A DNA stretch of 64,000 bases from Acetobacteraceae bacterium (GTDB lineage Bacteria; Pseudomonadota; Alphaproteobacteria; Acetobacterales; Acetobacteraceae). The DNA is taken from positions 5,068,690-5,132,689 of the forward strand of contig OZ240681.1 of the NCBI GenBank assembly GCA_965199165.1, in the 5' to 3' direction. Shown one piece after another: positions 1,451-53,491 of this stretch. The stretch's first letter is position 1; every line of letters begins with the position of its first letter. The position numbers were made by a program, and so were the translations under genes. The notes below the pieces were generated by a model. It worked only from the letters and a program-made list of their open reading frames with translations, was not told where the DNA came from and searched no databases.

Positions 1451-1606
1451 CGCCCCGCATCGGCCTGGGCCGAGAACAACTTCTATGGGCGTGCCCCTCG
1501 GGCAACCCAGGCGCAAACTACGGTCTGCCCCGGGTGCCGCCAAGTCAATCATTGTTGCCGACTATTTCGACTTAAGTCCTTGTGAATGTTGTATTTTATG
1601 CCGCTC

Positions 1607-3160: not shown

Positions 3161-3203
3161 GGTCGTCCTCCGTTGATGGGGGTGTGAGGGTTCGGGCCGG
3201 GCA

Positions 3204-4505: not shown

Positions 4506-4510
4506 GTCGT

Positions 4511-5377: not shown

Positions 5378-6282
5378 TGGGCGTGCTCCACCATCCAGGC
5401 GCACAGGGCGGGGAACGACATGCCCAGGTGCGCCGCCTGTTCCGGCAGCAAGGAGGTCGACGTCAGGCCCGGCTGGGTGTTGACCTCCAGCAGCACCAGC
5501 CGCCCCGGCTCCCCAGCGGTGTCGTCGTAGCGCAGGTCGGACCGGGTGGCGCCGCGGCAGCCAAGGGCGCGGTGCGCGCGCAGGGCGATGTCCATCGCGC
5601 GGCTCCACGTGTCCGGATGGACCTGGGCGGGCAAGGCGTGGGCGCTGCCACCGGGCGCGTATTTCGCCTCGTAGTCGTAGAACCCGTGCGACGGGGTGAT
5701 GTCGGTCACGGTCAGCGCGTGGTCGCCCAGCACCGCGACGGTCAGCTCGCGGCCCGGGATGTATTCCTCGACCAGCGCCTCGGAACCGAAGCGCCAAGCC
5801 GCGGCCACCTCCGCCCGGCGGTTGCCGCCCTGCCGCATGATCTCGACCCCGACGGAGGACCCTTCGTCGACCGGCTTGACCACGTAGGGCAGCGGCATCG
5901 GGTCGGCCTCGGCCAGCTCGCTGACGGGCAGCACGCGCCCGTTCGCCACCGGCAGGCCGGCGGCCACGAACACCGCCTTGGCCGCCTGCTTGTTCATCGC
6001 CAGGGCAGAGGCGCGCACGCCCGAGTGCGTGTAGGGGATGCCCAGCCAGTCCAGCACGCCCTGGATGCTGCCATCCTCGCCGAAGCGGCCGTGCAGGGCG
6101 TTGAACACCACGTCCGGTGCCGGGGTCAGCGCGGCGACGAGGGCGCGCAGGTCGCCATCGACCTCCACCGGACGCACGTCGAAGCCGGCCTCGCGCAATG
6201 CCGCGATCACCTCGGCGCCGCTGGCGAGGCTGACCTCGCGTTCGGCGGAGATGCCGCCGTAGAGCACCGCGACCGTCTTCAT
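5365..6282 (-). CDS. ddl: D-alanine--D-alanine ligase
   Basis: [22 protein letters not shown].., [44 protein letters not shown]. The start ATG overlaps the murB-remnant stop (ATGA). Confidence 0.92.
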
Positions 6283-6830
6283 GCCACCACCTCCGGCCGG
6301 CCGGCCGGGATGCCGAGGCGCTTGATCTCCCACTCCAGCGTCACGCCGCTGGTGGCATGCACGCGGCGACGGACCTCCTCGCCCAACCCCTCGAGGTCCG
6401 CCGCGGAGGCACCACCCGTGTTGAGCAGGAAGTTGCAGTGCTTCTCGCTGACCTGGGCGCCGCCGCGGCGCAGGCCGCGGCAGCCGGCGGCGTCGATCAG
6501 CTCCCACGCCTTCATGTCCGCCGGGTTGCGGAAGGTGGAGCCGCCGGTGCGGGCGCGGACCGGCTGCGTCGCTTCCCGGCTGGCGCGGATGGCGGCCATG
6601 CTGGCGGCGATCATGGCCGGGTCACCGGGCGTGGCGCGGAAGCGGGCACGCACCACCACCGTGCCCGGCGGCAGCGCGGCATGGCGGTAGTCGAACTGCA
6701 AGGCCTGGGCAGGCAGCTGGGTGAGCCCGGCGGAGCCGACGATCTCCACCCAGTCCAGGCACCCGGCCACATCCCCGCCATAGGCGCCCGCGTTCATGGC
6801 GACGGCGCCGCCGACGGAGCCGCAGCACGT
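6279..6830 (-). pseudogene. murB: UDP-N-acetylenolpyruvoylglucosamine reductase, 3' part only (about the last 180 codons); N-terminal FAD-binding part absent
   Basis: [18 protein letters not shown] .. TGGSTFRNP .. [18 protein letters not shown] .. LEWEIKRLG match the MurB C-terminal region. Upstream of ~6828 the same frame reads SBP-gene sequence as nonsense, and no MurB N-terminus appears in any frame. Confidence 0.75.
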
Positions 6831-28168: not shown

Positions 28169-29197
28169 ATGGGTGCCGCCATGATCCGAGATATAGACGG
28201 GCTCATCCGCACCGGATGGGCCACGGAGGCCAGCCGTGCGGCGCTGGAGGCCGTCGGCGAGCGCTACGCCATCGCCATTCCACCGGCGCTCGCCTCGCTC
28301 ATCGGCGACGACCCGGGCGGCCCGATCGGGCGGCAGTTCGTCCCCCATCCCGACGAACGCCTGCGGGCAGCCCACGAAAGCCCGGACCCGATCGGCGACG
28401 ACGCCCTCTCGCCGCTGCCCGGCATCGTGCATCGCTACGCTGACCGGGTGCTGCTCAAGCCGTTGCTCGTCTGCCCGGTCTATTGCCGCTTCTGCTTCCG
28501 CCGCGAACATGTCGGCCCCGATGGTGGCCTGCTGACCGAAGCGCAGCTTGATGCCGCCTATGCCTGGATCGCCGAGCGGCCCGCGGTGCGGGAGGTCATC
28601 CTCACTGGCGGCGACCCGCTCATGCTCTCGCCCCGGCGGCTCGGCGTCATCATGACGGCACTCTCGGCCATCCCGCATGTCGAGACGATCCGCCTGCATT
28701 CGCGCCTGCCGGTGGCGCAGCCCGAGCGGCTGACGGAGGCCATGGCCGACGCCATGGAAAGCGACCGTGCCGTCTGGCTCGTCGTCCACGCCAACCATGC
28801 GACGGAGTTCACGGAGGCTGCCCGCGCGGCGCTTCGTCGGGTGCAGCGGCGCGGTATCCCGGTGCTCGGCCAGTCGGTGCTGCTGCGCGGCGTCAACGAC
28901 AGCGAGGGTGCGCTGGAGAGCCTGCTCCGCGCGATGGTCGCGGCACGGGTAAAGCCTTACTACCTGCACCAGCTCGATCCCGCTCCCGGCACGGCGCGGT
29001 TTCATGTGCCGATCGCCGAGGGCCAGGCGCTGCTCCGGCGCTTGCGCGGCCGGGTCACAGGTCTCGCCTGGCCGACCTATGTGCTGGACATCCCGGGGGG
29101 CGCCGGCAAGGTGCCGATCGGCCCGGACTACCTCGAGGGCGAAGACGCGGTGCGCGATCCCGCAGGGATCACGCATGCCGTGAGGCTGGGCGCGTAA
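28169..29197 (+). CDS. epmB: Lysine 2,3-aminomutase-like radical SAM enzyme (EF-P beta-lysylation type, KamA/EpmB family)
   Basis: VHRYADRVLLKPLLVCPVYCRFCFRRE (CX3CX2C), ILTGGDPLML, YYLHQLD; immediately upstream of efp. Confidence 0.85.
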   Translation: MGAAMIRDIDGLIRTGWATEASRAALEAVGERYAIAIPPALASLIGDDPGGPIGRQFVPHPDERLRAAHESPDPIGDDALSPLPGIVHRYADRVLLKPLLVCPVYCRFCFRREHVGPDGGLLTEAQLDAAYAWIAERPAVREVILTGGDPLMLSPRRLGVIMTALSAIPHVETIRLHSRLPVAQPERLTEAMADAMESDRAVWLVVHANHATEFTEAARAALRRVQRRGIPVLGQSVLLRGVNDSEGALESLLRAMVAARVKPYYLHQLDPAPGTARFHVPIAEGQALLRRLRGRVTGLAWPTYVLDIPGGAGKVPIGPDYLEGEDAVRDPAGITHAVRLGA

Positions 29198-29263
29198 GCT
29201 TGCCGCGACCCTGCTGAAGGGTTACAAGCCGCGCCTCCCATCCCGACGGTATCGAGACATTCC

Positions 29264-29830
29264 ATGAAGCAGCAGGCGAACCTTATTCGCGCCGGCCAGG
29301 TGATCGAGCATGAGGGCCGCCGCTGGACGGTCCTGAAGCAGCAGATCATCACCCCAGGCAAAGGCGGCGCTTTCATCCAGGTCGAAATGCGCGACCTCAA
29401 GACCGGCAACAAGACGAACGAGCGCTGGCGCACCGCCGACACGGTCGAGCGGCTGCTGACCGACAACAAGGACTACATCTACTCCTATACCGACGGCGAC
29501 AACCTCGTGCTGATGGACAAGGAGACCTACGAGCAGGCCATGGTCCCGTCCGAATTGCTCGGTGACGGCGTTGCCTTCCTGCAGGACAACATGCCGGTGA
29601 CGGTCGACCTCGTCGAAGGCGATCCGGTCGGCATCCATCTGCCGGTCTCCGTGGTGCTCGAAATCGTCGAAGCCGATCCGGTCACCAAGGGCCAGACCGC
29701 GACCAGTTCCTACAAGCCCGCGAAGCTCTCCAACGGGGTGAAGACGATGGTGCCGCCGTTCATCGAGACCGGGGAGCGCATCGTGGTCCGCACCGAGGAC
29801 GGTTCCTACATGGAGCGGGCGAAGGGCTGA
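29264..29830 (+). CDS. efp: Elongation factor P
   Basis: LIRAGQVIEHEGRRWTVLK..ITPGKGGAFIQVEMRDLKTG (modifiable Lys in the PGKG loop), OB-fold C-terminal domains. Confidence 0.95.
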   Translation: MKQQANLIRAGQVIEHEGRRWTVLKQQIITPGKGGAFIQVEMRDLKTGNKTNERWRTADTVERLLTDNKDYIYSYTDGDNLVLMDKETYEQAMVPSELLGDGVAFLQDNMPVTVDLVEGDPVGIHLPVSVVLEIVEADPVTKGQTATSSYKPAKLSNGVKTMVPPFIETGERIVVRTEDGSYMERAKG

Positions 29831-29846
29831 CAGGGACCCGTCGACC

Positions 29847-30677
29847 ATGGCCCCGCGCCTCTCCGCCCATCTGACCATCATGGCAAATGCCGCCCAGCGA
29901 GCGGCAAAGCAGCTGCTGCGCGACTTCAATGAGGTCGAGCAGCTTCAGGTTTCCATCAAGGGTCCATCAGATTTCGTCTCCCAGGCCGATCTCAAGGCCG
30001 AGGCGATGATCAAGCAGGACCTCAACAAGGCGCGGCCCGGCTACGCCTTCCTCATGGAGGAGTCCGGTGCCTCGGGTTCCGACAACTGGACCTGGCGCTG
30101 GGTGGTGGACCCGCTCGACGGCACCACCAACTTCCTGCACGGCATGCCGCACTGGGCGATCAGCATCGGGCTGGAGCGGCGGTTGCCCGATGGCGGGGTG
30201 GAGAACGCAGCCGGGGTTATCTATTCCCCGGCCGCTGACGAGATGTTCTGGGCCGAAAAGGGCTCGGGCGCTTTCATGAATGACCGCCGGCTGCGGGTCT
30301 CTGCGCGGCGGGATTTGGATCAGGCGGTGTTCGCGACTGGCATCCCCTTCGCGGGTGCGTCACCCCGTCAGCGTCTTTCGTTCGCGCGCACGCTCGGCAC
30401 TTTGGCGCCGCAGACGGCGGGCATCCGGCGCTTCGGGGCCGCAGCGCTGGACATGGCCTGGGTCGCTGCCGGCCGTTTCGACGGCTACTGGGAGATCGGC
30501 ATCAAGCCGTGGGATGTCTCGGCAGGCATCCTGCTGGTGCGCGAAGCCGGGGGCTATGTGACGGACCCGGACGGGCGTGACCAGATCGGTGCCGACGTCG
30601 TGGCGGCCAATCCCCACCTGCATCCGAAGCTGCTGGAGGCGGTGGCGGACGGTCTCGCGGCGGCGGGAACGGCCTGA
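29847..30677 (+). CDS. suhB: Inositol monophosphatase family protein
   Basis: FLMEESG, WVVDPLDGTTNFLHG, WDVSAGILLVREAGG. Confidence 0.88.
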   Translation: MAPRLSAHLTIMANAAQRAAKQLLRDFNEVEQLQVSIKGPSDFVSQADLKAEAMIKQDLNKARPGYAFLMEESGASGSDNWTWRWVVDPLDGTTNFLHGMPHWAISIGLERRLPDGGVENAAGVIYSPAADEMFWAEKGSGAFMNDRRLRVSARRDLDQAVFATGIPFAGASPRQRLSFARTLGTLAPQTAGIRRFGAAALDMAWVAAGRFDGYWEIGIKPWDVSAGILLVREAGGYVTDPDGRDQIGADVVAANPHLHPKLLEAVADGLAAAGTA

Positions 30678-32615: not shown

Positions 32616-33602
32616 ATGCGCCGCACCACTCATTTTCTGCTTGCCACCGCGATCTTGGCCGCACCGATGCCGGTGGCGGCCCAGGTTTCGGTCGATCTCA
32701 ATGCGCTGAGCGGTCTCGGTGCCGCTCCCCTGCCTGGGCCGCCACCCAGCGCGCCGATGACGCCGCATCACTATCACCACCGGATGCGCCACCTCGCCCG
32801 TGGCGAAAAGGCGCGCGGGACCGCAGCGCCGACCGCCGTCGCCTCCGCGACAGAAGCCCCCGCCACCGGGCCGGAAGCCATCGAACATCCGGCCAATCTC
32901 GGGCCGTCCTTCAACAGCCTGCCCGCACTCCCGGGCGCCGCGCCACCGGTGCCCGCGCCACCGCCCGCCGTGCCTCCCGCTCCACCCATGCCCGCCGCGG
33001 CCACCAAGCCGGCAGCGCCGAAACCGGCCGAAACAGCCTCGGCCACGCCTAAGTCCGCCACGCCGAAGTCTGGCACGCCAAAGTCTGGCATGCCGGAGCC
33101 CGCAGCGCCTGCCACGCCGGCGCTCGCGCTACCCAAGGCGGTGCCGCCACCCCCTGCTTTGGCGCCGAGTGCCCCGACACGCCTGGCAGAGGTGACACCG
33201 CCACCGCCGGCGGCCCAGCCCGCGCCCCCAAAACCTGCGCCGAACGCACTGCCGACGGGCGCGGATCGTCTCACGCTGCCCTTCTTCGTGAATGAAAGCG
33301 ACCTGCCCCCGGCCGAAAACGCCATGCTGCGGGACTTCGCCCAGCGCTATGGGGGCACGGCCGAATACGTCATCCGCGCCTTCGCGACGCCGCCCGCGGG
33401 GGACGACGACCCGTCAACTCCGCGGCGCCTGGCACTTGCACGCGCGCAGGCCGTGGCCGCCGCGCTGGAGACGTCCGGCGTGCAACCCGAGCGGGTGCGG
33501 CTCCTCGCGCTCGGCAATGCCGGAGGCAGCCCGGCCGACCGGGTAGAAGTCATCGCCATGCCGCCGTCCAGCAGTCATACTACTTCCGAATCCACACCTT
33601 AG
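32616..33602 (+). CDS. Secreted proline/alanine-rich protein with a degenerate OmpA-like C-terminal domain
   Basis: Signal peptide MRRTTHFLLATAILAAPMPVAAQ, ~200 aa low-complexity P/A-rich region. C-terminus LTLPFFVNESDL..YVIRAFATPP..RRLALARAQAVAAALETSGVQPERVRLLALGN..DRVEVI. Confidence 0.6.
   Translation: MRRTTHFLLATAILAAPMPVAAQVSVDLNALSGLGAAPLPGPPPSAPMTPHHYHHRMRHLARGEKARGTAAPTAVASATEAPATGPEAIEHPANLGPSFNSLPALPGAAPPVPAPPPAVPPAPPMPAAATKPAAPKPAETASATPKSATPKSGTPKSGMPEPAAPATPALALPKAVPPPPALAPSAPTRLAEVTPPPPAAQPAPPKPAPNALPTGADRLTLPFFVNESDLPPAENAMLRDFAQRYGGTAEYVIRAFATPPAGDDDPSTPRRLALARAQAVAAALETSGVQPERVRLLALGNAGGSPADRVEVIAMPPSSSHTTSESTP
33045..33089 (+). repeat. 3 x 15-bp in-frame tandem repeat (ACGCCnAAGTCyGsC; TPKSA/TPKSG/TPKSG)
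   Basis: Read directly inside the Pro-rich region. Confidence 0.6.
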
Positions 33603-33617
33603 CGGTCCAGATCCCCT

Positions 33618-34772
33618 ATGACACGGCCGACTACTTACCTGATCCGGATGCTCATCTTCCTCGCGGCCGTCCTCGCCGTCGTGATCTTCCTGATCCCCAA
33701 GCTGCGCATCTTCTTCTCGAGCAACCCTGCGCTCAACGCCTTCATCTGCTTCGTGCTCCTTCTCGGCATCCTCTGGAACCTGCGGCAGGTCCTGCGGCTG
33801 GAACCCGAGGTCGCCTGGGTCGGCGACTACCAGCGCACCCGCCAGCGCCTGTCGGGCCTCGTGCCGCCGAAGCTGCTGGCGCCCATGGCGCGCATGCTGG
33901 CCTCCCGCGCCGAAGCCGCCGGGCGCGAAGGCCGCGTCACCCTCTCCGCCCAGGCCATGCGCAGCCTGCTCGACGGCATCGGCAGCCGGCTCGACGAAAG
34001 CCGCGAGCTGTCCCGCTACGCCACGGCACTGATGATCTTCCTCGGCCTGCTTGGAACGTTCTGGGGCCTGCTGAAGACCGTCAGCGCGGTCGCCGACGTG
34101 ATCCAGGGCATGAGCGTCGGCGGCGGCGACATCAACGCGGTCTTCGACCAGCTCAAGGCCGGGCTTGCCGGGCCGCTCGCCGGCATGTCCACCGCCTTCT
34201 CCTCCTCCATGTTCGGCCTCGCCGGGGCGCTGGTTCTGGGCTTCCTCGATCTTCAGGCCGGGCAGGCCCAGAACCGCTTCTACAACGAGCTGGAGGATTG
34301 GCTGGCGGGCTTTACCCGCCTCTCCTCCGGCGTGCTGGGCGGCGACGGCGAGGGCGGGAACGTGCCACACTATGTGCAGGCGCTGCTGGAACAGACGGCC
34401 GAGAACATGGAAGGCCTGCAGGCCGTGCTCCTCCGCGGCGAAGAAGGGCGACTGCAGTCGACCCAGATCCTCACGACGCTCGTCGACCGCCTCAACACCT
34501 TCACCGACACCATGCGCGCCAACCAGCAGCTCATGCTGCGTATCGCCGAGACTCAGGCGAGCCTTGCCCCGGCCCTGCAACGCATGACCGACCACCGCGA
34601 CCACCGGGCCTCGGACGAGGTCTCGCATGCGCATCTGCGCAACATCGAGCACGCTTTGCAGCGCCTCATCGCGGAATCGGAGCAGGGCCGCGCGCAAACG
34701 ACCTCCGAGCTGCGCAACGACATCCGCGTGCTGACCCGCACGATCGCCGCGATCAATGATGGGGCCCGTTAA
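33618..34772 (+). CDS. MotA/TolQ/ExbB-family proton-channel protein with ~170-aa C-terminal coiled-coil tail
   Basis: Two N-terminal TM helices. Channel-family helices YATALMIFLGLLGTFWGLLKTV and LAGMSTAFSSSMFGLAGALVLGFL. Heptad-like tail follows (ENMEGLQAVLL..LVDRLNTFTDTMRANQQLMLRIAE..). Confidence 0.75.
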   Translation: MTRPTTYLIRMLIFLAAVLAVVIFLIPKLRIFFSSNPALNAFICFVLLLGILWNLRQVLRLEPEVAWVGDYQRTRQRLSGLVPPKLLAPMARMLASRAEAAGREGRVTLSAQAMRSLLDGIGSRLDESRELSRYATALMIFLGLLGTFWGLLKTVSAVADVIQGMSVGGGDINAVFDQLKAGLAGPLAGMSTAFSSSMFGLAGALVLGFLDLQAGQAQNRFYNELEDWLAGFTRLSSGVLGGDGEGGNVPHYVQALLEQTAENMEGLQAVLLRGEEGRLQSTQILTTLVDRLNTFTDTMRANQQLMLRIAETQASLAPALQRMTDHRDHRASDEVSHAHLRNIEHALQRLIAESEQGRAQTTSELRNDIRVLTRTIAAINDGAR

Positions 34773-34789
34773 CATGGGGGCGCGCTGAC

Positions 34790-36217
34790 ATGCCGGGCTT
34801 CCACCGCCGACGCCCGCATAACGGGCTCGACGCCTGGCCGGGCTACGTGGACGCGCTTTCCACGCTGCTCATGGTCACGATCTTCGTGCTGCTGGTCTTC
34901 GTGCTGGCGCAGGGTCTGCTCTCCGTCACGCTGACGGGCAAGGACAAGGCGCTCGAACGGCTCAACCAGGAGATCTCGCAACTCACCGACATGCTGTCGC
35001 TGGAGCGCGGCCGGGCGGCGGACCTCCAGGGCAACGTTGCGAGCCTTGCGCATGACCTGGGCGAGGTCACTACGGCGCGGGATGCGCTCGCGCATCAGCT
35101 GTCGACGGCGCAGGCGGCGGTCGCCCAGGATACCAGCCAGGTCTCGACGCTCACTGCCCAGCGGGACCGTCTGAGCGCAGAGCTCGCGGACAGTGTGGTG
35201 CAAGCGCAGTCTGCCAGCGCACGGCTGAACGATATCCAGGGGCAGCTCAGCCAGCAGACGCAAGCCGCCGCCGCCGCCAATAGCCAGCTTGTCAGCGTCC
35301 AGGCAGCGTTGACGGCGACGCAGCAGAAGCTTTCGGCGACCGACACCAGCCTGTCCCAAGCCAACGCCGCCACGGCCGCCGCAACGGCCGCCACCCAGGC
35401 CGCCACTGCCCACGCGGCCGGTCTGCAAGCCCAGCTGACGGCCGCCGATACCCAGGCCACCACCGCCGCAGCAAGCCTTGCGGCGGCCCGCACCGCGCTG
35501 GCGCAGGACCAGACCCAGATTGCTCAGGCGCAACAGCAGGCGGTCGCCGGTAGCACGGCGCTCAGCCAGCAGAAGCAGGCGACGGATGAAGCGAATACCG
35601 AGATCGCGCTCCTCAACGAGCAGATGGCGCAGCTCCGGGCGCAGCTGACCGCGATCGCCTCGGCGCTCCAGCTTCAGGAGAACCAGGGCAGGGACAAGGA
35701 TGCCGAAATCGCCGATCTCGGCCGCAAGCTCAACCTCGCCCTCGCCGCCAAGGTGCAGGAACTGCAACGCTACCGCAGCGACTTCTTCGGCAAGCTGCGC
35801 GAGATCCTGAAGAACCAGCCGAACATCAAGGTCGTCGGCGACCGCTTCGTCTTCCAGAGCGACGTGCTCTTCCCGGTCGACGGCGCGACCATGACGCCAG
35901 CCGGGCAGGGGCAGATCGGCGACATCGCGACCGCCGTCAAAGGCATCATGAAGGAGATCCCGCCCGACCTCTCCTGGATGCTGCGGGTGGACGGCCATGC
36001 CGACAGCCAGCCTGTTACCAGCGGCCAGTACAAGAACAACTGGGACTTGTCGGCCGCGCGGGCCATCGCGGTAGTGCAGCTGCTGATCCAGGATGGCGTG
36101 CCCGCGAACCACCTCGCGGCGACGGCCTTCGCCGATACGCAGCCGATCGATCCCGCCCCCAATGCAGCCGCGTATGCGAAGAACCGCCGAATTGAATTCC
36201 GCCTGACGGACCGCTGA
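34790..36217 (+). CDS. MotB-like protein: plug/TM with conserved Asp, ~280-aa Ala/Gln-rich coiled coil, C-terminal OmpA-type peptidoglycan-binding domain
   Basis: AWPGYVDALSTLLMVTIFVLLVF (MotB-type TM, Asp21), long coiled coil (LERLNQEISQLTDML ... KVQELQRY). OmpA domain: VFQSDVLFPVDGATMT..VDGHADSQP..NNWDLSAARAIAVVQLL..NRRIEFRL. Confidence 0.75.
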   Translation: MPGFHRRRPHNGLDAWPGYVDALSTLLMVTIFVLLVFVLAQGLLSVTLTGKDKALERLNQEISQLTDMLSLERGRAADLQGNVASLAHDLGEVTTARDALAHQLSTAQAAVAQDTSQVSTLTAQRDRLSAELADSVVQAQSASARLNDIQGQLSQQTQAAAAANSQLVSVQAALTATQQKLSATDTSLSQANAATAAATAATQAATAHAAGLQAQLTAADTQATTAAASLAAARTALAQDQTQIAQAQQQAVAGSTALSQQKQATDEANTEIALLNEQMAQLRAQLTAIASALQLQENQGRDKDAEIADLGRKLNLALAAKVQELQRYRSDFFGKLREILKNQPNIKVVGDRFVFQSDVLFPVDGATMTPAGQGQIGDIATAVKGIMKEIPPDLSWMLRVDGHADSQPVTSGQYKNNWDLSAARAIAVVQLLIQDGVPANHLAATAFADTQPIDPAPNAAAYAKNRRIEFRLTDR

Positions 36218-36245
36218 GCCGCTACTCTTGATCAGGAACGGGGCG

Positions 36246-37061
36246 ATGCTCGACAACCCAGAGGTGGCGCGTCGCGAATGGACCGTCGGGGCCCAGCGGA
36301 TCGTGCTGGCCGACTGCCTCCTGGGTCTGGCGGACCTGCCGCCCGAGAGCATCGACGTCTGCGTGACCTCCCCGCCCTACAACATCGGCGTCGCCTACCG
36401 CACCTACCGGGACCGGATGCCGCGCGCCGCCTATCTGGATTGGCTTGGCGAGGTCGGCCGGGCGATCCACCGCACGCTCAAGCCTGAGGGCTCGTTCTTC
36501 CTCAATGTGGGCGGCACCGGCGGCGACCCGTGGATTACGAGCGACGCCGGCCGCGCCATGGGCGAGGCCTTCGTGCTGCAGAACCACATCGTCTGGGTCA
36601 AGTCGCTGAGCATCGGCGGCGATACGGTCGGGCATTTCAAGCCGATCACCAGCCCGCGCTACCTCAACCAGAACCACGAGACCATTTTCCATTTCACCAA
36701 GACCGGCGCGGTCGCCGTCGACCGGCTGGCGGTGGGCGTGCCGTTCAAGGACAAGTCGAACATCGCCCGCTGGGGCCACGCGCGGGACCGGCGTTGCGCC
36801 GGCAACGTCTGGTTCATCCCCTACCAGACCGTGAAGTCCCGCACCGAGAAGTTCGATCATCCGGCGGGCTTCCCGGTCGAGCTGCCGTTGCGCTGCATCC
36901 AGCTGCACGGGGTCGAGGCGCCGTGCGTGCTCGACCCGTTCCTGGGCGCGGGGACGACGCTGGTCGCGGCGCAGAGGCTCGGCGCCCATGGCATCGGTTT
37001 CGAGATGGATGCCGACTACGCCGAACGGGCGGTACAGAGGCTCGCGAGCGACTCGCCGTAG
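36246..37061 (+). CDS. Beta-class DNA methyltransferase (N4-cytosine or N6-adenine), no adjacent restriction gene
   Basis: Motif IV DVCVTSPPYN precedes motif I VLDPFLGAGTT (the beta-class order), FDHPAGFPVELP. An alternative TTG start lies at 36228. Confidence 0.8.
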   Translation: MLDNPEVARREWTVGAQRIVLADCLLGLADLPPESIDVCVTSPPYNIGVAYRTYRDRMPRAAYLDWLGEVGRAIHRTLKPEGSFFLNVGGTGGDPWITSDAGRAMGEAFVLQNHIVWVKSLSIGGDTVGHFKPITSPRYLNQNHETIFHFTKTGAVAVDRLAVGVPFKDKSNIARWGHARDRRCAGNVWFIPYQTVKSRTEKFDHPAGFPVELPLRCIQLHGVEAPCVLDPFLGAGTTLVAAQRLGAHGIGFEMDADYAERAVQRLASDSP

Positions 37062-47399: not shown

Positions 47400-48275
47400 A
47401 TGAACGCGCCGCCGATCGCCTACGCCTTCTCCGTCATCCTCCTCATCGCCGCCGGGCTGATCGTGCACGCCACCCACGAGGCCCCGTTCGGCATCGTCCT
47501 CGCCGTCATCCTCGTGCTCGGCGCCATCACCATCCCCTCCTGGCTCAAAATGACGGACCAGTGGAACCGCGCCATCATCCTGCGTCTCGGGCGCTTCCGT
47601 GGCCTCGGCGGACCGGGGCTGTTCACGCTCATCCCGTTCCTCGAATCGATCGCGACCGTCATCGACGTCCGCATCCGCACCACGGAAATCCGCGCCGAGG
47701 AGGCGCTGACGCGGGACACGGTGTCCATCGCCATGGACGCCATCGTCTTCTGGCGCGTGGTGGACGCCCGCCGCGCGGCGACCGAGATCGAGCAGTACCG
47801 GCTGGCCGTGGAGCGCGTGGCGCAAACCAGCCTGCGGGAGACGATCGGCAGCCATGACCTCACGCAGCTGCTGTCCGACCGGCAAACGGCGGACGAAGAA
47901 CTGCGCGAGACGATCAGCCGCAAGACCGTGATCTGGGGCGTGGAGATCACCTCGGTCGAGATCAAGGACATCGCCATCCCCACCTCGCTGCAGGATGCGA
48001 TGAGCCGTCAGGCGCAGGCCGAGCGGGAGAAGCAGGCGCGCGAGACACTCGCCTCGGCCGAGATCGGCATTGCGATCAAGGTGCGCGAGGCGGCGCGCAT
48101 CTATGCCGAGGACCCAGTCGCGCTTCAGCTCCGGCAGATGAACCTGGTCTACGAGATGAACAAGGATCGCGGCACCACGATCATCATCCCGAGCGAGATG
48201 GCGACGAGCCTGGGGTCGCTCGGGGTGGCGGCGTTTGCGAAGCAGGCCGGGAATGATAAACCCGCAGGCAAGTAG
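47400..48275 (+). CDS. SPFH/band-7 (stomatin-like) membrane protein
   Basis: N-terminal TM helices, ILRLGRF..PGLFTLIPF, TRDTVSIAMDAIVFWRV, IWGVEITSVEIKDI, AEREKQAR. Confidence 0.85.
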   Translation: MNAPPIAYAFSVILLIAAGLIVHATHEAPFGIVLAVILVLGAITIPSWLKMTDQWNRAIILRLGRFRGLGGPGLFTLIPFLESIATVIDVRIRTTEIRAEEALTRDTVSIAMDAIVFWRVVDARRAATEIEQYRLAVERVAQTSLRETIGSHDLTQLLSDRQTADEELRETISRKTVIWGVEITSVEIKDIAIPTSLQDAMSRQAQAEREKQARETLASAEIGIAIKVREAARIYAEDPVALQLRQMNLVYEMNKDRGTTIIIPSEMATSLGSLGVAAFAKQAGNDKPAGK

Positions 48276-48300
48276 AACACGCTGATCAGGGACGATACGC

Positions 48301-49623
48301 ATGGCAACGACACCCCGCTTCTTCACCCAGGAAGCGCCGATCCAGTTCGAGGGCCGGGAAAGCCGCAATCCACTCGCCTTCCGCTGGTACGACCGCGACC
48401 GCGTGGTTCTGGGCAAGACGATGGAGCAGCAGCTGCGCTTCGCCGTGGCCTACTGGCACTCGCTTGCATGGCCCGGCGGCGACCCCTTCGGCGGCGAGAC
48501 CTTCCTGCGCCCCTGGATGCATGGCTCGGACGAGATGGCGCTGGCCCGGCACAAGGCCGAGGTCGGCTTCGACCTGTTCCGCCTGCTCGACGTGCCCTTC
48601 TTCTGCTTCCATGACCGCGACGTGGCGCCCGAAGGCGCAACGCTCGCCGAGAGCAACCGCAACCTCGACGTGATCGCCGACCTCTTCGCCGAGAAGATGG
48701 CGCGCGAGAAGGTCAAGCTGCTCTGGGGCACGGCGAACCTGTTCTCCAACCGCCGCTTCATGGCGGGCGCGGCAACCAACCCCGACCCCGACGTGTTCAT
48801 CTACAGCGCGGGTCAGGTGAAGCATGCCCTGGAGACGACGCACCGGCTCGACGGCGCCAACTACGTGCTGTGGGGCGGCCGTGAAGGCTACGAGACGCTG
48901 CTCAATACCGATCTGGGCCAGGAGCTGGATCAGCTTGGCCGCTTCGTGAACCTCGTGGTGGAGCACAAGCACAAGATCGGCTTCAAGGGCGCGATCCTGC
49001 TGGAGCCGAAGCCGCAGGAGCCGACCAAGCATCAATATGATTTCGACGTGGCCACCGTCTACGGCTTCCTGAAGCGCTACGGGCTGGAGAAGGAAGTTCA
49101 GGTCAATATCGAGGACAATCACGCGACCCTCGCCGGCCATACCTACGAGCATGAGATCGCGCTCGCGGTGGCTCTGGGCATTTTCGGTTCGCTGGACGTG
49201 AACCGCGGTGACCGGCAGTCAGGCTGGGACACGGACCAGTTCCCGAACGACCCGACCTCGATGGCGCTCGGCTTCTACCACCTGCTCCAGGCGGGCGGGT
49301 TCACGACCGGCGGCTGCAACTTCGACGCCAAGGTGCGCCGGCAGTCGCTGGACCCGGACGATCTGCTCATCGCCCATGTCGGCGGCATGGATGTATGCGC
49401 GCGGGCGCTGCTGATGGCCGCCGAGATGATCGAGGACGGCGTGCTGCCGGGCCTCGTCGCCGACCGCTATGCGGGCTGGAAGACGCCGGAAAACCAGGCG
49501 ATCCTGAAGGGCGAGCGCAGTCTGGACGATCTGGCGGCGCTTGTAGCCCAGAAGGAGATCAACCCCTCGCCGCGTTCGGGCCGGCAGGAATACCTGGAAA
49601 ACCTCGTCAACCGGTATCTGTGA
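48301..49623 (+). CDS. xylA: Xylose isomerase
   Basis: [63 protein letters not shown]. Confidence 0.95.
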
Positions 49624-51040: not shown

Positions 51041-51100
51041 GTTGCCCCACGTCATTTGATCCATACGGAAATCGTTGTAATCCGATTGGAAGAAGCTCAC

Positions 51101-52183
51101 TTATGCGTGAGCGAGATGAACCCTTGGCCTGATGACGGCTCCGCCAAGCATCGGTCGCGATACTCCGGTCGTCATCGGCAGGCTGAGTGGCAGCCCGCGC
51201 TGCACCCGCGCCGCCAGAAAGCCGAAGCACTGCGCCTCCAGCGCGTCGCCGTCCCAGCCGACGGCCCCGACCGGATGTACCGGCCCACCGAGCCCCGCGG
51301 CGAGCGCTGCCATGATGACCTTGTTGTGCCGCCCGCCCCCGGTGACCAGCCAGCGCAGCGGCCGCTCGGGCAGAGGACAGGACGCGACGGCCCGCGCGGT
51401 GAAAGCCGCGAGCGTCGCTGCGCCGTCCGCGGCCGAGACGCCGGCCAGATCGGCCATGACGCCATGGAAGGCCTGCCGGTCGAGCGACTTCGGCAAAGGC
51501 CGGGCGAAATAGGGCTGCATGAGCCAGCGCGCGATCAGAGCCTCCTGGATCTGGCCGGAACCTGCGAGCGCGCCATCGACATCGAAGGCCTGACCCGTGT
51601 GCCGCGCCACCCAGTCGTCGAGCAGCGCGTTCCCCGGGCCAGTGTCACAGGCGGCGATGGTGCCGTCGCTCCCCAGGAACGTCACGTTGGCGACGCCGCC
51701 TATGTTCAGCACCGCCAGAGGCTTCGGCAGCGCGCGGGCCAGCGCGGCATGGAACAGCGGCACCAGCGGCGCGCCCTCGCCGCCGGCAGCGACATCGGCC
51801 TCGCGGAAAGCGTAGGCGACAGGCGTCAGTGTCGCTTCGGCCAGAGCTTGCGCATCGCCGATCTGCCAGGTCCGACGGCGCGCAGGGTCGTGCAGGATCG
51901 TCTGGCCGTGAAAGCCGATGAGGTCGGCAGGCCGCCCGATGCGGCGGACAGCCTCGATATGGACCTCCGTCAGCCGCCGCGTGGCGTCCAGCAGATCCGG
52001 GTCATCGGCGCGAAGCCCCGACGCCCGGTCCAGGATGCGGCGCAGATCGGCCCGCAGGCCTGTGTCATAGGGCAGCGTCAGGCTGGGGCCGAAGGCGCCG
52101 ATCGCCTCGCCATCCGTCTCCAGCCAGGCGGCGTCCACCCCATCCAGCGAGGTGCCACTCATCAGCCCAATCACACGCAGCAT
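51101..52183 (-). CDS. anmK: Anhydro-N-acetylmuramic acid kinase
   Basis: [40 protein letters not shown]. Confidence 0.9.
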
Positions 52184-52243
52184 TCCGCCATCCCCCCACC
52201 CGTGCTAGCCCAGCGCAGCGAACGATACTTACGGACAGGCTCG

Positions 52244-53491
52244 ATGACGAAAAGCGGTTTCCTGACGGAGGCGAAGGCACGCGGCTTCGTGTTCCAATGC
52301 ACGGACGAGACGGCGCTGGACGAGGCGCTGCTGGCCGGCACCGTCAGCGGCTATATCGGCTTCGACCCGACCGCCGCCAGCCTGCATGTCGGCAGCATGG
52401 TGCAGATCATGATGCTGCGGCTGCTGCAGAAGCACGGCCACAAGCCGGTGGCGCTCCTCGGCGGCGGCACCTCCAAGATCGGCGACCCGTCCTTCCGCGA
52501 GGAAGCCCGCCAGCTGCTGACGGACGCCCAAATTGCCGAGAACATCGCCGGCATCCGCCGCAATATCGAGCCGTTCCTGCGTTTCGGGGATGGCCCCTCG
52601 GACGCCATCATGGCCAACAACGCCGACTGGCTCGACCGCCTCGGCTATATCGAGCTGCTGCGCGAGATCGGGCCACATTTCAGCATCAACCGCATGCTCA
52701 GCTTCGACAGCGTGAAGTCCCGGCTGGACCGCGAGCAGGGGCTGACCTTTCTCGAGTTCAACTACTCCATTCTGCAGAGCTACGACTTCCGCGAGTTGAA
52801 CCGCCGCTATGGCGTCAACCTGCAGATGGGCGGGTCCGACCAGTGGGGCAACATCGTCTCGGGCGTCGATCTCGTCCGCCGCACCGACGCGAAGACCGTC
52901 TTCGGGCTGACGACACCGCTGCTGACCACGGCCTCGGGCGCCAAGATGGGCAAGACCGCGCGCGGCGCCGTCTGGCTGTCGGCCGAGCGCCTGTCGCCCT
53001 TCGACTACTGGCAGTTCTGGCGGAATACGGAGGACGCCGATGTCGGGCGCTTCCTGCGGCTGTTTACCGACCTGCCGCTGGAAGAGACTGCCCGGCTGGA
53101 AGCGCTCGGTGGCGCCGAGATCAACGAGGCCAAGAAGATCCTGGCGACCGAGGCGACGACGCTCAACCATGGCGCCGAGGCCGCACGCGCCGCTGCCGAA
53201 ACGGCGCGGCTCGCCTTCGAGGAGGGCGCCGCCGCCGACAGCCTGCCGAGCGTGACGCTGCCGGTGGAGGATTTGCAGGCCGGTATTCCGGCTTTCGCAA
53301 TCCTCGTAGCGGCGGGTTTGGCGGCGACCAACGGCGAGGCGCGGCGGCTGATCCGGGGTGGCGGCGCGCGCCTCAACGACGTGCCCTTCACCGAGGAGGC
53401 GCAGATCGTGTCGCTCTCGGATCTTCATGACGGGGCGCTGAAATTGTCCGCCGGGCGTAAGCAGCACCGGCTGGTGCGGGCAGGAAACTGA
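52244..53491 (+). CDS. tyrS: Tyrosine--tRNA ligase
   Basis: [16 protein letters not shown] (HIGH-type), KMGKT (KMSKS-type), C-terminal S4-like domain. The 811-aa ORF in the track is over-extended across antisense anmK. Confidence 0.93.

What the first reader, a model, noticed from the sequence alone, without database searches (positions are those of the whole stretch)
32616..36217. Stand-alone stator-like (MotAB/ExbBD/TolQR-type) module with long coiled coils and an extra secreted OmpA-like partner
Three co-directional genes lie 15-17 nt apart. (i) A secreted Pro/Ala-rich protein with a degenerate OmpA-like C-terminus. (ii) A 384-aa MotA/TolQ/ExbB-type channel subunit (GLLGTFWGL and STAFSSSMFGLAGA helices) with a ~170-aa coiled-coil tail after the last TM helix. 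(iii) A 475-aa MotB-like subunit with the plug/TM segment and the conserved proton-binding Asp (WPGYVDALSTLLMV), then ~280 residues of Ala/Gln-rich coiled coil, then a canonical OmpA peptidoglycan-binding domain. No flagellar, TonB, TolA/TolB/Pal or gliding genes are in the neighbourhood, so none of the known output partners of such motors is present. Known members of this superfamily (MotAB, ExbBD, TolQR, AglRQS, ZorAB) are 5:2 ion-driven rotary motors. A tail on the A subunit is the hallmark of the anti-phage ZorA. Here both subunits carry extensions. At about 0.15 nm rise per helical residue, the B-subunit coil would be roughly 40 nm if continuous. That is longer than a typical periplasm, implying a folded-back or membrane-parallel arrangement. 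An orphan DNA methyltransferase follows directly. The function is not deducible from sequence; envelope tethering or maintenance and phage sensing are both conceivable.
Basis: partly seen in the sequence, partly recalled or inferred. Interest (0 to 1): 0.7.

Follow-up and report, generated by a model that had tools for sequence, protein, structure and literature searches.

The report
Conserved non-flagellar ZorAB-like envelope motor
This is a real three-gene operon for a proton-channel "stator-like" motor that is conserved on the chromosomes of many alphaproteobacteria. It is unrelated to flagella or to mobile phage-defence islands. Its wall-anchoring subunit carries a long coiled-coil rod whose length varies between species in whole seven-residue steps, and its function is still unknown.

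Summary
Three co-directional genes lie 15 and 17 nt apart:
- P1 is a secreted Pro/Ala-rich protein with an OmpA-like domain.
- A is a 4-TM subunit of the MotA/ExbB/TolQ/ZorA superfamily with a roughly 170-aa cytoplasmic helical tail.
- B has a transmembrane helix with an invariant Asp21, then about 290 residues of coiled coil, then a canonical OmpA domain.

It is not an isolated oddity. The A-B pair occurs in 79 of 80 related genome loci (Acetobacterales, Rhodospirillales) and in Sinorhizobium. It almost always lies downstream of an inositol-monophosphatase gene, and P1 is present in about 62 of 75 loci. The methyltransferase is adjacent in 1 of 80 loci and is not part of the module.

A is closest to ZorA by profile and by fold. 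However, there are no Zorya effector genes, no copies on true plasmids or phages, and the synteny is housekeeping.

PCR primers published for the Komagataeibacter hansenii "motA/motB" genes encode the same protein termini, which suggests orthology. That non-flagellated species shows polar localisation and changes in cell length.

New finding: the B coil keeps a single heptad frame, and its length (146-594 aa) is quantised modulo 7.

Verdict: a new variant of the ion-driven motor superfamily. It is probably a peptidoglycan-anchored envelope motor, and its output is unknown.

The parts
32616..33602 (+). P1: secreted Pro/Ala-rich protein with a C-terminal OmpA-like domain (328 aa)
   Evidence: The ORF is. 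It has a signal peptide (MRRTTHFLLATAILAAPMPVAA|QVSVD) and a conserved mature N-terminal motif, (A)QVTVD.xAL. Homologous upstream ORFs occur in 62 of about 75 loci. In 23 of these the stop codon overlaps the A start by 4 nt.
33261..33560 (+). P1 OmpA-like domain (residues ~216-315), degenerate at the canonical GHTD motif
   Evidence: Pfam OmpA scores 28.6 bits on the isolated domain, and 23 of 24 homologues match (best 2.7e-16). A profile against PDB finds YiaD at 1.8e-12 and MotY at 1e-7. Alignment A3 shows AYAxG..DDPS in place of GHTD, with RRLSLSRA retained.
33618..34772 (+). A: 4-TM channel subunit of the MotA/ExbB/TolQ/ZorA superfamily, ZorA-like branch (384 aa)
   Evidence: PADLOC ZorA1 gives 3.8e-13. 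All 30 of 30 family members hit ZorA models, against 24 of 30 for Pfam MotA_ExbB, where the window protein (18.8 bits) is below the 22.9-bit cutoff. AF2 pLDDT is 83. Foldseek finds ZorA, TolQ, ExbB and MotA. The family is conserved over its full length.
34017..34256 (+). A subunit TM3-loop-TM4 core (residues 134-213), containing invariant LGLxGTFxGL...T154 and P186, G189, M190, F194, S197
   Evidence: Invariant columns of alignment A1; hydropathy. This is the only part matched by the MotA_ExbB and ZorA profiles.
34368..34769 (+). A subunit cytoplasmic helical tail (residues 251-384), ending in the conserved motif ELRxEIRLLxRTIA
   Evidence: AF2 predicts helices 251-329 and 334-383 after a disordered 236-248 segment. 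The terminal motif is conserved across 30 diverse members, and the tail length is nearly constant.
34790..36217 (+). B: MotB/ZorB-like anchor subunit (475 aa), a member of NCBIfam PRK09039 'peptidoglycan-binding protein'
   Evidence: NF006543 scores 449 bits against a cutoff of 305. It lies next to A in 79 of 80 loci.
34835..34909 (+). B transmembrane segment with motif WPGYVDALSTLLMV and Asp21 (codon 34850-34852)
   Evidence: The motif W-P-G-[YFW]-V-D is found in 70 of 71 orthologues. D21 is invariant in alignment A4. TM helix at 22-40.
34928..35809 (+). B periplasmic coiled coil (residues ~47-340) in a single uninterrupted heptad frame
   Evidence: The same best heptad frame holds in 36 consecutive 28-residue windows. 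Across orthologues the length is 146-594 aa and quantised modulo 7: 52 of 71 loci and 24 of 41 unique lengths share one class, chi-square p = 1.7e-13. The window's coil carries about 125 extra residues relative to the 350-position NCBIfam model.
35822..36214 (+). B C-terminal OmpA-type peptidoglycan-binding domain (residues ~345-475)
   Evidence: Pfam OmpA scores 46.5 bits over profile positions 2-98. PDB sequence hits include PomB, MotB, MotS and TssL. The GHxD and NxxLSxxRA motifs are invariant in A4.

Best explanation
P1-A-B is a chromosomal, vertically inherited envelope module of Alphaproteobacteria. It belongs to the ion-driven MotAB/ExbBD/TolQR/ZorAB motor superfamily, on the ZorAB-like branch, and serves neither a flagellum nor a Zorya-type defence system.

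**Shown here**
- A has the family fold and the conserved TM3/TM4 core.
- B has the conserved transmembrane Asp.
- B's TM helix runs without a frame break into a long coiled coil that ends in a canonical OmpA domain.
- A and B are almost always adjacent.
- P1 is a frequent third partner, often with its stop codon overlapping the A start.

**Inferred**
- A and B assemble like their relatives, presumably 5 A to 2 B.
- Protons pass via B Asp21 and the A TM3/TM4 Thr/Ser residues.
- The B dimer is fixed to peptidoglycan through its OmpA domains at the far end of a rigid rod. Ion flow would then turn the A ring, with its cytoplasmic helical tails, around B.
- P1 adds a second OmpA-like wall contact on a flexible Pro-rich spacer.

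**Most likely role.** It is probably a PMF-dependent link between the inner membrane and the cell wall, acting at poles or division sites and influencing cell length and separation. This rests mainly on the Komagataeibacter 'MotAB' phenotypes. The molecular output partner is unknown.
For: **Fold and motifs.** Evidence for the family fold and conserved motifs is.

**Pairing and synteny.**
- A-B are paired in 79 of 80 loci, and P1 is present in 62 of about 75.
- An inositol-monophosphatase gene lies upstream in 58 of 80 loci and efp in 49 of 80. No downstream gene is conserved.
- The order IMPase-A-B also holds in Sinorhizobium meliloti, in a different order of bacteria.
- No flagellar, Tol or Ton genes occur in the 64-kb window.

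**Not mobile.** Among 72,556 plasmid records there were 3 hits, and all are 3.5-4.6 Mb records. Among 50,697 phage records there were none.

**Link to K. hansenii motA/motB.** The primers encode MTRPTTY, identical to the N-terminus of window A, and ...EFRLTDR*, identical to the C-terminus of window B. That species lacks flagella. GFP fusions are polar or bipolar. Overexpression gives elongated or chained cells and more colony spreading. Knock-outs are viable and make denser cellulose (PMC6570709, PMC7347698).

**Rod.** B keeps a single heptad frame phased to the TM Asp motif in all 71 orthologues. Lengths are quantised modulo 7, and the off-classes are explained by one stutter or stammer.
Against: - No stoichiometry, ion flux, rotation or peptidoglycan binding was or could be tested here.
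- The phenotypic data come from overexpression and GFP fusions in one genus. They are indirect, and orthology is inferred from primer-encoded termini and protein sizes, not full sequences.
- The rod (22-88 nm if straight) is longer than a typical distance from inner membrane to peptidoglycan, so the geometry is unexplained.
- A low-confidence single-sequence AF2 model (pLDDT 66) folds the B coil back at residues 181-185. A hairpin is therefore not excluded.
- P1 lacks the canonical GHTD motif, so its wall binding is uncertain. P1 is also absent in Rhizobiaceae.
- PADLOC contains only defence models, so the 'closest to ZorA' ranking had no housekeeping competitors in that library.
Confidence: 0.55

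Rival explanations
1. It is a Zorya-like anti-phage system. In this view A/B senses envelope perturbation, as ZorAB does, and signals through the A tail. The adjacent methyltransferase, or some unlinked protein, would act as effector or self-marking partner.
For: The best profile and fold matches are to ZorA and ZorB. The A subunit has a cytoplasmic helical tail. A methyltransferase follows B with no terminator between them.
Against: - No ZorC/D/E/F/G-like or any other conserved downstream gene was found in 80 loci.
- The methyltransferase is adjacent in only 1 of 80 loci.
- Synteny with efp and the inositol monophosphatase is conserved across orders. Defence islands are typically mobile and variable in position.
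- There are no copies on true plasmids or in phages.
- NCBIfam antiphage_ZorA_2 scores 14.3 bits against a cutoff of 100.
- The tail is about 170 aa, against a 70-nm tail in E. coli ZorA whose length that paper suggests is functionally important and whose tip is needed for ZorD recruitment (PMC11946911).
Confidence: 0.07
2. It is a flagellar stator (MotAB), as the RefSeq product name 'flagellar motor protein MotA' implies.
For: Source annotations use this name. A has a 4-TM MotA-like topology, and B has an OmpA-type C-terminus like MotB and PomB.
Against: - The probable orthologous pair is present in non-flagellated Komagataeibacter (PMC6570709).
- There are no flagellar genes in the window.
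- Pfam MotA_ExbB is below threshold and MotB_plug is absent.
- NCBIfam MotB models score 43-71 bits against cutoffs of 250-342.
- The TM2-TM3 cytoplasmic loop is only about 78 residues.
- S. meliloti has this pair at a locus flanked by non-flagellar genes. That S. meliloti has separate flagellar motA/motB/motC genes rests on my own knowledge.
Confidence: 0.03
3. It is a Ton/Tol-like energiser. In this view A/B powers an outer-membrane process, and the Pro-rich P1 acts as the periplasm-spanning force transducer, as TonB or TolA do.
For: - P1 is Pro-rich like the TonB spacer and carries a conserved N-terminal short motif, (A)QVTVD.xAL.
- P1 is often translationally coupled to A.
- B combines TolR-like, TolA-like (long helix) and Pal-like (OmpA) elements in one chain.
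- P1 length and B coil length are anticorrelated (Spearman rho = -0.49, n = 36).
Against: - P1 has a cleavable signal peptide. It has no TM anchor that could dock onto the motor as TonB and TolA do.
- P1 is missing in Sinorhizobium and in some Rhodospirillales loci.
- No TonB-dependent receptor, TolB or Pal gene is linked.
- The length correlation is not corrected for phylogeny.
Confidence: 0.12
4. It is a passive structural tether. In this view B's rod and OmpA domain simply link the inner membrane to the wall, and A is a degenerate scaffold with no ion-driven activity.
For: The very long and variable rod, together with two OmpA-like domains, looks structural. Pfam recognises the A core only weakly.
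Against: The Asp-containing TM motif is found in 70 of 71 B orthologues, and the TM3/TM4 polar residues of A (T147, T154, S195, S197) are invariant or nearly so across the 30 aligned members, which are 33-67% identical to the window protein. That pattern is expected for a working ion path, not for a scaffold.
Confidence: 0.1

Closest known systems
ZorAB core of type I/III Zorya anti-phage systems
   Same: - It gives the best profile matches: ZorA1 3.8e-13 and ZorB3 1.8e-21 for the window proteins, and 30 of 30 family members hit ZorA models.
- It gives the best fold match (8vvn_D) and is the only motor hit by sequence profile against PDB.
- The B subunit has a TM Asp and a peptidoglycan-binding domain.
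- The A subunit has a cytoplasmic helical tail after the last TM helix.
   Different: - There are no ZorC/D or other effector genes.
- The context is chromosomal and housekeeping, with vertical inheritance.
- A has 4 TM segments, whereas ZorA has 3 (PMC11946911).
- The tail is about 170 aa, predicted as a hairpin of roughly 11 nm, against a pentameric tail of about 70 nm.
- B carries a 146-594-aa coiled coil between the TM helix and the peptidoglycan-binding domain. The ZorB peptidoglycan-binding domain begins at Thr47, soon after its TM helix.
- There is an extra secreted OmpA-like partner.
Komagataeibacter hansenii 'MotA/MotB' (Jacek et al., PMC6570709)
   Same: These are probably the same family. 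The published primers encode N- and C-termini identical to window A and B, the two genes are adjacent, and 4 TM segments are predicted in A. This is the only experimental information available: polar localisation, cell elongation or chaining on overexpression, and viable knock-outs.
   Different: The K. hansenii proteins are shorter (348 and 321 aa). The authors interpreted them as motility proteins, and no P1 partner or coil analysis was reported.
Flagellar stators MotAB/PomAB with MotY
   Same: A has the same 4-TM topology. B has a TM Asp and a C-terminal OmpA-type domain (PomB and MotB are the best PDB sequence hits for that domain). A secreted OmpA-like accessory protein recalls MotY (profile hit 1e-7).
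   Different: There is no flagellar context, and the probable orthologues occur in non-flagellates. The MotB_plug profile does not match. The cytoplasmic loop of A is short. A rigid heptad-continuous rod stands between the TM helix and the OmpA domain, where no MotB linker or plug profile is matched.
TolQR-TolA-Pal and ExbBD-TonB
   Same: The A core fold matches (TolQ and ExbB are Foldseek hits 2-33). The overall logic is the same: a PMF motor, a long periplasmic spacer and an OmpA-like wall-binding domain. The association with cell length and division recalls Tol-Pal.
   Different: The spacer and the OmpA domain are fused to the B subunit itself. There is no TolA/TonB-type TM-anchored transducer, no TolB, no lipoprotein Pal and no TonB-dependent receptor. 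B's periplasmic domain is OmpA-type, not of the TolR/ExbD type.
NCBIfam PRK09039 (NF006542-NF006546) 'peptidoglycan-binding protein'
   Same: Window B scores 449 bits against a cutoff of 305 for NF006543, so it is a member by NCBI's own rule.
   Different: The family name is only a domain description. No function is attached. The window protein carries about 125 extra coil residues relative to the 350-position model.

Membership tests
Ion-driven 5:2 motor superfamily (MotAB/ExbBD/TolQR/ZorAB) | A subunit has the MotA/ExbB/TolQ/ZorA channel fold | tested here: met
   The AF2 model has pLDDT 83. The top 47 Foldseek PDB hits are all A subunits (ZorA, TolQ, ExbB, MotA); the best has E = 5e-4 and probability 1.00, but TM-scores are only 0.3-0.6.
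Ion-driven 5:2 motor superfamily (MotAB/ExbBD/TolQR/ZorAB) | Curated Pfam MotA_ExbB model matched above its gathering score | tested here: not met
   The window protein scores 18.8 bits against a cutoff of 22.9. Of 30 family members, 24 match at E <= 0.01, best 2.2e-5. The family is a divergent branch.
Ion-driven 5:2 motor superfamily (MotAB/ExbBD/TolQR/ZorAB) | B subunit has a single TM helix with the universally conserved Asp | tested here: met
   Asp21 lies in the WPGYVDALSTLLMV motif. The motif is present in 70 of 71 orthologues, and D21 is invariant in A4.
Ion-driven 5:2 motor superfamily (MotAB/ExbBD/TolQR/ZorAB) | A and B genes are adjacent and co-directional | tested here: met
   The gap in the window is 17 nt. 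A-B are adjacent in 79 of 80 loci and in S. meliloti.
Ion-driven 5:2 motor superfamily (MotAB/ExbBD/TolQR/ZorAB) | A5B2 stoichiometry and ion-driven rotation | not testable with these tools
   Only monomer structure prediction was available. Cryo-EM or a multimer prediction and biophysics would be needed.
Zorya anti-phage system | ZorA/ZorB family models matched | tested here: inconclusive
   PADLOC gives ZorA1 3.8e-13 and ZorB3 1.8e-21, and 30 of 30 members hit ZorA models. But the curated NCBIfam antiphage_ZorA_2 model scores 14.3 bits against a cutoff of 100.
Zorya anti-phage system | Linked soluble effector genes (ZorC/ZorD, ZorE, or ZorF/ZorG) | tested here: not met
   No gene is conserved downstream or upstream other than efp and the inositol monophosphatase in 80 loci. 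The window neighbours are a methyltransferase, a thioesterase and efflux genes.
Zorya anti-phage system | Very long ZorA cytoplasmic tail (about 70 nm in E. coli ZorA; long tails in all subtypes) | tested here: not met
   The tail is about 170 aa and nearly constant in length across the family. The ZorA figure is from PMC11946911.
Zorya anti-phage system | Variable, mobile or defence-island genomic context | tested here: not met
   The position downstream of the inositol monophosphatase is conserved in Acetobacterales, Rhodospirillales and Sinorhizobium. No true plasmid or phage copies were found.
Flagellar stator MotAB/PomAB | MotB TM-plus-plug region matches the MotB_plug profile; curated NCBIfam MotB/MotA models passed | tested here: not met
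   There is no MotB_plug hit at E <= 0.1. NCBIfam MotB/MotS/MotD models score 43-71 bits against cutoffs of 250-342, and no MotA model hits A.
Flagellar stator MotAB/PomAB | Occurs with, and depends on, a flagellum | tested here: not met
   There are no flagellar genes in the 64-kb window. The probable orthologous pair is present in Komagataeibacter, which has no flagellum (PMC6570709).
Tol-Pal / Ton systems | TM-anchored TolA/TonB transducer and TolB/Pal or TonB-dependent receptor partners | tested here: not met
   P1 has a cleavable signal peptide and no other TM segment. No such genes occur in the window or in the related loci.
NCBIfam NF006543 (PRK09039.1-2) peptidoglycan-binding protein | Whole-protein score above the curated cutoff | tested here: met
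   449.4 bits against a cutoff of 305.
OmpA-like (PF00691) domain, for P1 | Profile match above the gathering score; canonical peptidoglycan-contact motifs | tested here: inconclusive
   The full-length protein scores 25.7 bits (< 27.2), the isolated domain scores 28.6 bits (> 27.2), and 23 of 24 homologues match. The fold assignment is sound (YiaD 1.8e-12). However, GHTD is replaced by AYAxG..DDPS, so peptidoglycan binding is uncertain.

The most novel reading that the evidence does not exclude
The family would be a housekeeping counterpart of Zorya: a PMF-driven rotary sensor and actuator of the cell envelope in Alphaproteobacteria. The B dimer would be a rigid, in-register coiled-coil shaft of 22-88 nm that couples the mechanical state of the cell wall (through two kinds of OmpA-like domain) to rotation of the A ring and its cytoplasmic tail bundle. 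That rotation would in turn control polar growth or cell separation. The heptad-quantised length variation would then tune the reach or torsional compliance of the shaft. Zorya would be a defence-specialised offshoot of such an envelope-monitoring motor, or the reverse.
Probability: 0.15. Interest if true: 0.85.

Novelty: new variant of a known kind. Interest (0 to 1): 0.6.

Why it matters
Ion-driven 5:2 motors are known to power flagella, gliding, type IX secretion, Ton import, Tol-Pal envelope maintenance and Zorya defence, and each new output has been informative. This family is widespread and conserved in synteny across at least three alphaproteobacterial orders, yet public databases label it a flagellar protein, and no mechanism has been described.

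Its architecture is unusual. The wall-anchoring subunit carries a continuous coiled coil that changes length between species by whole heptads over a fourfold range, while the cytoplasmic tail of the channel subunit stays constant. That gives a directly testable structural hypothesis: a rigid, in-register shaft.

The family is also a tractable entry point for two questions: what a non-defence ZorAB-like motor does, and how Zorya arose. Genetics exist for Komagataeibacter and Sinorhizobium.

On the practical side, the results show that the RefSeq name 'flagellar motor protein MotA' is misleading for thousands of genes.

Tried and rejected
1. **Rgs polar-growth proteins of S. meliloti as orthologues.** The paper mentions no MotA, ExbB or OmpA-like protein, and its held supplements contain no SMc03992-SMc03994. 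Only a gene adjacency to rgsF was found.
2. **CtrA box (TTAA-N7-TTAA) upstream of the operon.** None was found; the only two 1-mismatch matches in the window are far away.
3. **Literature search for 'PRK09039'.** It returned two irrelevant papers. Searches for non-flagellar MotAB in alphaproteobacteria gave nothing specific. The surveys of 5:2 motors, MotAB evolution and force transducers do not describe this family.
4. **Methyltransferase as part of the system.** Rejected because it is adjacent in only 1 of 80 loci.
5. **Promoter and terminator scan.** It found no promoter and no convincing terminator inside or after the operon, so it was uninformative.
6. **AF2 of B with an alignment built from genome loci.** The single-sequence model has low confidence and folds the coil at its midpoint, a behaviour I would expect (from experience) of monomer prediction on a long helix. 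It was not used as evidence.
7. **Sequence search of A against PDB.** A single-sequence search gave nothing. The profile search is dominated by generic coiled-coil hits to the tail.
8. **ChvI regulation.** One unvalidated intragenic gel-shift fragment lies in SMc03993. The assignment of that tag to the A gene rests only on consecutive numbering. It is kept as a weak lead, not as evidence.
9. **P1 length versus B coil length.** The anticorrelation is not corrected for phylogeny and was not used.

Full report
**Observation**

The three ORFs exist exactly as described: 32616-33602 (P1, 328 aa), 33618-34772 (A, 384 aa) and 34790-36217 (B, 475 aa). All are on the + strand, separated by 15 and 17 nt. 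They have strong third-position GC bias, and public assemblies carrying the identical A protein call the same genes.

**Protein A**

- It has four hydrophobic segments (8-26, 37-55, 134-152, 192-210), a K/R-rich 56-133 loop and 174 residues after TM4. This implies an N-in, C-in topology like MotA.
- Curated profiles barely see it. Pfam MotA_ExbB scores 18.8 bits against a cutoff of 22.9, and a single-sequence search of PDB finds nothing.
- PADLOC ZorA models match well (ZorA1 3.8e-13). All 30 diverse family members hit ZorA models, against 24 of 30 for Pfam MotA_ExbB.
- An AlphaFold2 model built on a 30-sequence alignment has mean pLDDT 83. It shows long TM helices, a disordered 236-248 segment and tail helices at 251-329 and 334-383.
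- Foldseek against PDB returns only A subunits of ion-driven motors in its top 47 hits. The best is Shewanella type I ZorA (8vvn_D, E = 5e-4), followed by TolQ, ExbB, E. coli ZorA and MotA.
- A family profile against PDB sequences also finds ZorA as its only motor hit.

The family fold is therefore supported, on a ZorA-like branch.

**Protein B**

- It meets NCBI's own criterion for NF006543 (PRK09039.1-2, 'peptidoglycan-binding protein'; 449 bits against 305).
- It has a full-length OmpA domain (46.5 bits), whose nearest solved relatives are PomB, MotB and MotS.
- The N-terminal motif W-P-G-[YFW]-V-D-A-L-S-T-L-L, containing Asp21, is present in 70 of 71 orthologues.
- Pfam MotB_plug does not match.

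**Protein P1**

- It has a signal peptide, a conserved mature N-terminal motif ((A)QVTVD.xAL) and a Pro/Ala-rich spacer.
- Its C-terminal domain is OmpA-like. Of 24 homologues, 23 match PF00691, and a profile hits YiaD at 1.8e-12 and MotY at 1e-7.
- The canonical GHTD motif is replaced.

**Distribution and context**

- The A family is large. There are 534 clusters (at 50% identity) with E < 1e-30, nearly all matching over the full length including the tail.
- The closest named relatives are in Acidisoma (86-88% identity) and carry the RefSeq name 'flagellar motor protein MotA'. Distant members are from Rhodospirillales, Hyphomicrobiales and unclassified Alphaproteobacteria.
- In 80 genome loci, A is followed by B in 79.
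- A co-directional upstream ORF homologous to P1 is present in 62 of about 75 loci. In 23 of these its stop overlaps the A start.
- An inositol-monophosphatase-family gene lies upstream in 58 loci and efp in 49.
- No downstream gene is conserved.
- The methyltransferase that follows B in the window is found in only 1 of 80 loci, the Acidisoma one.
- The MFS gene between the phosphatase and P1 is likewise a lineage-specific insertion.
- Around the window operon lie ntrYX/ntrBC, dus, ispF, epmB, efp, the phosphatase, an MFS transporter, then P1-A-B-MTase, a thioesterase and an efflux operon. The rest of the window holds ddl/ftsA/ftsZ/lpxC and metabolic genes. There are no flagellar, Tol, Ton or gliding genes.
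- A tblastn search of 72,556 plasmid records found three hits, all 3.5-4.6 Mb records, i.e. chromosome-sized. A search of 50,697 phage records found none.
- In Sinorhizobium meliloti the order is thiE, rgsF, inositol monophosphatase, A (368 aa), B (342 aa). There is no P1 in the 315-nt gap.

The conserved core is therefore phosphatase-A-B, with P1 a frequent third member.

**Link to published work**

Jacek et al. studied 'motA' (348 aa) and 'motB' (321 aa) of Komagataeibacter hansenii, which has no flagellum (PMC6570709).

- Their cloning primers encode MTRPTTY at the start of motA and ...EFRLTDR-stop at the end of motB. These are identical to the termini of window A and B.
- I take these to be orthologues. 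This is an inference from the termini, sizes and context, not from full sequences.
- GFP fusions were polar in short cells and bipolar in long cells.
- Overexpression gave longer cells in chains, threefold more colony spreading and looser cellulose.
- Disruption mutants were viable and made denser cellulose (PMC7347698).

No mechanistic description of the family was found.

**The B coil**

- In the window protein the best heptad frame is the same in all 36 overlapping 28-residue windows from residue 41 to about 320.
- Across 71 orthologues the coil always starts in the same frame relative to the TM Asp motif. In 36 of them it stays in that frame throughout.
- The distance from TM end to OmpA start ranges from 146 to 594 residues, with a median of 265.
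- That distance is quantised. Of 71 loci, 52 share one residue class modulo 7, as do 24 of 41 distinct lengths (chi-square p = 1.7e-13 on distinct lengths). No other period from 3 to 12 is significant on distinct lengths.
- The minority classes differ by +3 or +4 and show a single corresponding frame shift, i.e. a stammer or a stutter.
- The S. meliloti protein, from another order, obeys the rule: 160 residues, same class, one frame.
- The simplest reading is one continuous coiled coil from the membrane to the OmpA domain, probably a parallel dimer, which evolves by in-frame heptad gain and loss. If straight it would measure about 22-88 nm, and about 43 nm in this window.
- A low-confidence single-sequence AF2 model (pLDDT 66) folds the coil back at residues 181-185. 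I consider this a monomer artefact but cannot exclude a hairpin.
- By contrast, the A tail is nearly constant in length and ends in a conserved motif, ELRxEIRLLxRTIA.

**Mechanism**

Shown:
- the family fold of A;
- the conserved ion-path residues;
- the operon linkage;
- the wall-binding-type domain of B at the end of a register-continuous rod.

Inferred from the solved relatives (ZorAB, MotAB, TolQR, ExbBD):
- a 5:2 complex in which proton flow through B Asp21 drives relative rotation;
- with B fixed to peptidoglycan, the A ring and its cytoplasmic tails would turn.

The output is unknown. The Komagataeibacter data point to a polar, envelope-related role affecting cell length and separation. 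I rate this explanation at 0.55.

**Rivals**

- **Ton/Tol-like energiser with P1 as transducer (0.12).** P1 has no membrane anchor and is not universal.
- **Passive tether (0.10).** Contradicted by the invariant ion-path residues.
- **Zorya-like defence (0.07).** No effectors, no mobility, a short tail, and the methyltransferase adjacency is not conserved.
- **Flagellar stator (0.03).** The probable orthologues occur in non-flagellates, there is no flagellar context, and the curated models are failed.

**Comparison and novelty**

By sequence and fold it resembles ZorAB most closely, but it fails three of Zorya's defining features: effector genes, a long tail and a variable genomic context. By logic it resembles a Tol-Pal system with TolR-like, TolA-like and Pal-like elements fused into one chain. 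B is a member of NCBIfam PRK09039 by the curated cutoff, but that name carries no function.

I classify it as a new variant of a known kind: a distinct, widespread, uncharacterised family of the ion-driven motor superfamily. Its architecture (heptad-quantised periplasmic rod, constant cytoplasmic tail, secreted OmpA-like partner) has not been described in the papers I could search.

Interest is 0.6. It is neither unique to this window nor unannotated. A specialist would nonetheless find a housekeeping ZorAB-like motor, and the coil-length rule, surprising and testable.

**Weak leads not used as evidence**

- rgsF encodes an essential Sel1-repeat protein of the polar growth and septation zone. 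It lies two genes upstream of the pair in S. meliloti, verified with the published primers.
- A ChvI gel-shift fragment maps inside SMc03993 (PMC3687685). That tag is the A gene only if locus tags run consecutively.

Noticed in passing
L084:4430-5575 (S. meliloti), relative to A at L084:6932-8038: The essential polar-growth and septation factor gene rgsF (SMc03995, Sel1/TPR repeats) lies two genes upstream of the A-B pair in Sinorhizobium. Its identity was verified by matching two published primers. No Sel1 gene is near the operon in the window, so the adjacency may be coincidental.
   Followed up: partly
S. meliloti SMc03993 (presumed A gene; not in the window): A ChvI (envelope-stress response regulator) gel-shift screen recovered a 256-bp fragment inside SMc03993 (PMC3687685). 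The fragment was not validated by reporter fusion. The assignment of the tag to the A gene rests on consecutive numbering from rgsF.
   Followed up: partly
window 36228-37061 (+): An orphan N6/N4 DNA methyltransferase (PF01555, 4e-42; PADLOC type II MTase, 1e-77) follows B by about 10-28 nt with no terminator between. No restriction enzyme gene is adjacent. It is present at this position only in the Acidisoma lineage (1 of 80 loci).
   Followed up: yes
window 29847-30677 (+) and related loci: An inositol-monophosphatase-family gene lies upstream of the A-B pair in 58 of 80 loci and in Sinorhizobium. Synteny that holds across orders could mean co-regulation, or only a conserved gene order.
   Followed up: partly
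window 28169-29830 (+): epmB (lysine 2,3-aminomutase family) lies directly upstream of efp, a pairing associated with EF-P modification. A further ORF family, which I read by eye as epmA-like and did not check with any profile, appears in 12 related loci.
   Followed up: no
L082:6170-7410: In a sister strain a PIN_10/DUF433 toxin-antitoxin-like pair is inserted between the phosphatase gene and the MFS gene. Together with the MFS gene itself, this shows the stretch upstream of P1 is an insertion hotspot in this lineage.
   Followed up: no
window 491-6507 (-): This is the end of the division and cell-wall cluster: lpxC, ftsZ, ftsA and ddl. The long ORF 3204-5264 over-extends ftsA upstream (the FtsA domains start at residue ~358).
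   Followed up: no
window 47400-49623 (+): A Band_7/SPFH gene is followed 25 nt later by a 440-aa ORF with strong coding bias and no Pfam match.
   Followed up: no
window 51056-53491 (+): This 811-aa ORF has a class I tRNA-synthetase (W/Y) domain only in residues 431-721. Either the start is over-called or there is a long N-terminal extension.
   Followed up: no
related loci L001-L080 (P1 and B genes): B coil length and mature P1 length are anticorrelated (Spearman rho = -0.49, p = 0.002, n = 36). The test is not corrected for phylogeny. If real, it would suggest that the two proteins share a spatial constraint.
   Followed up: partly
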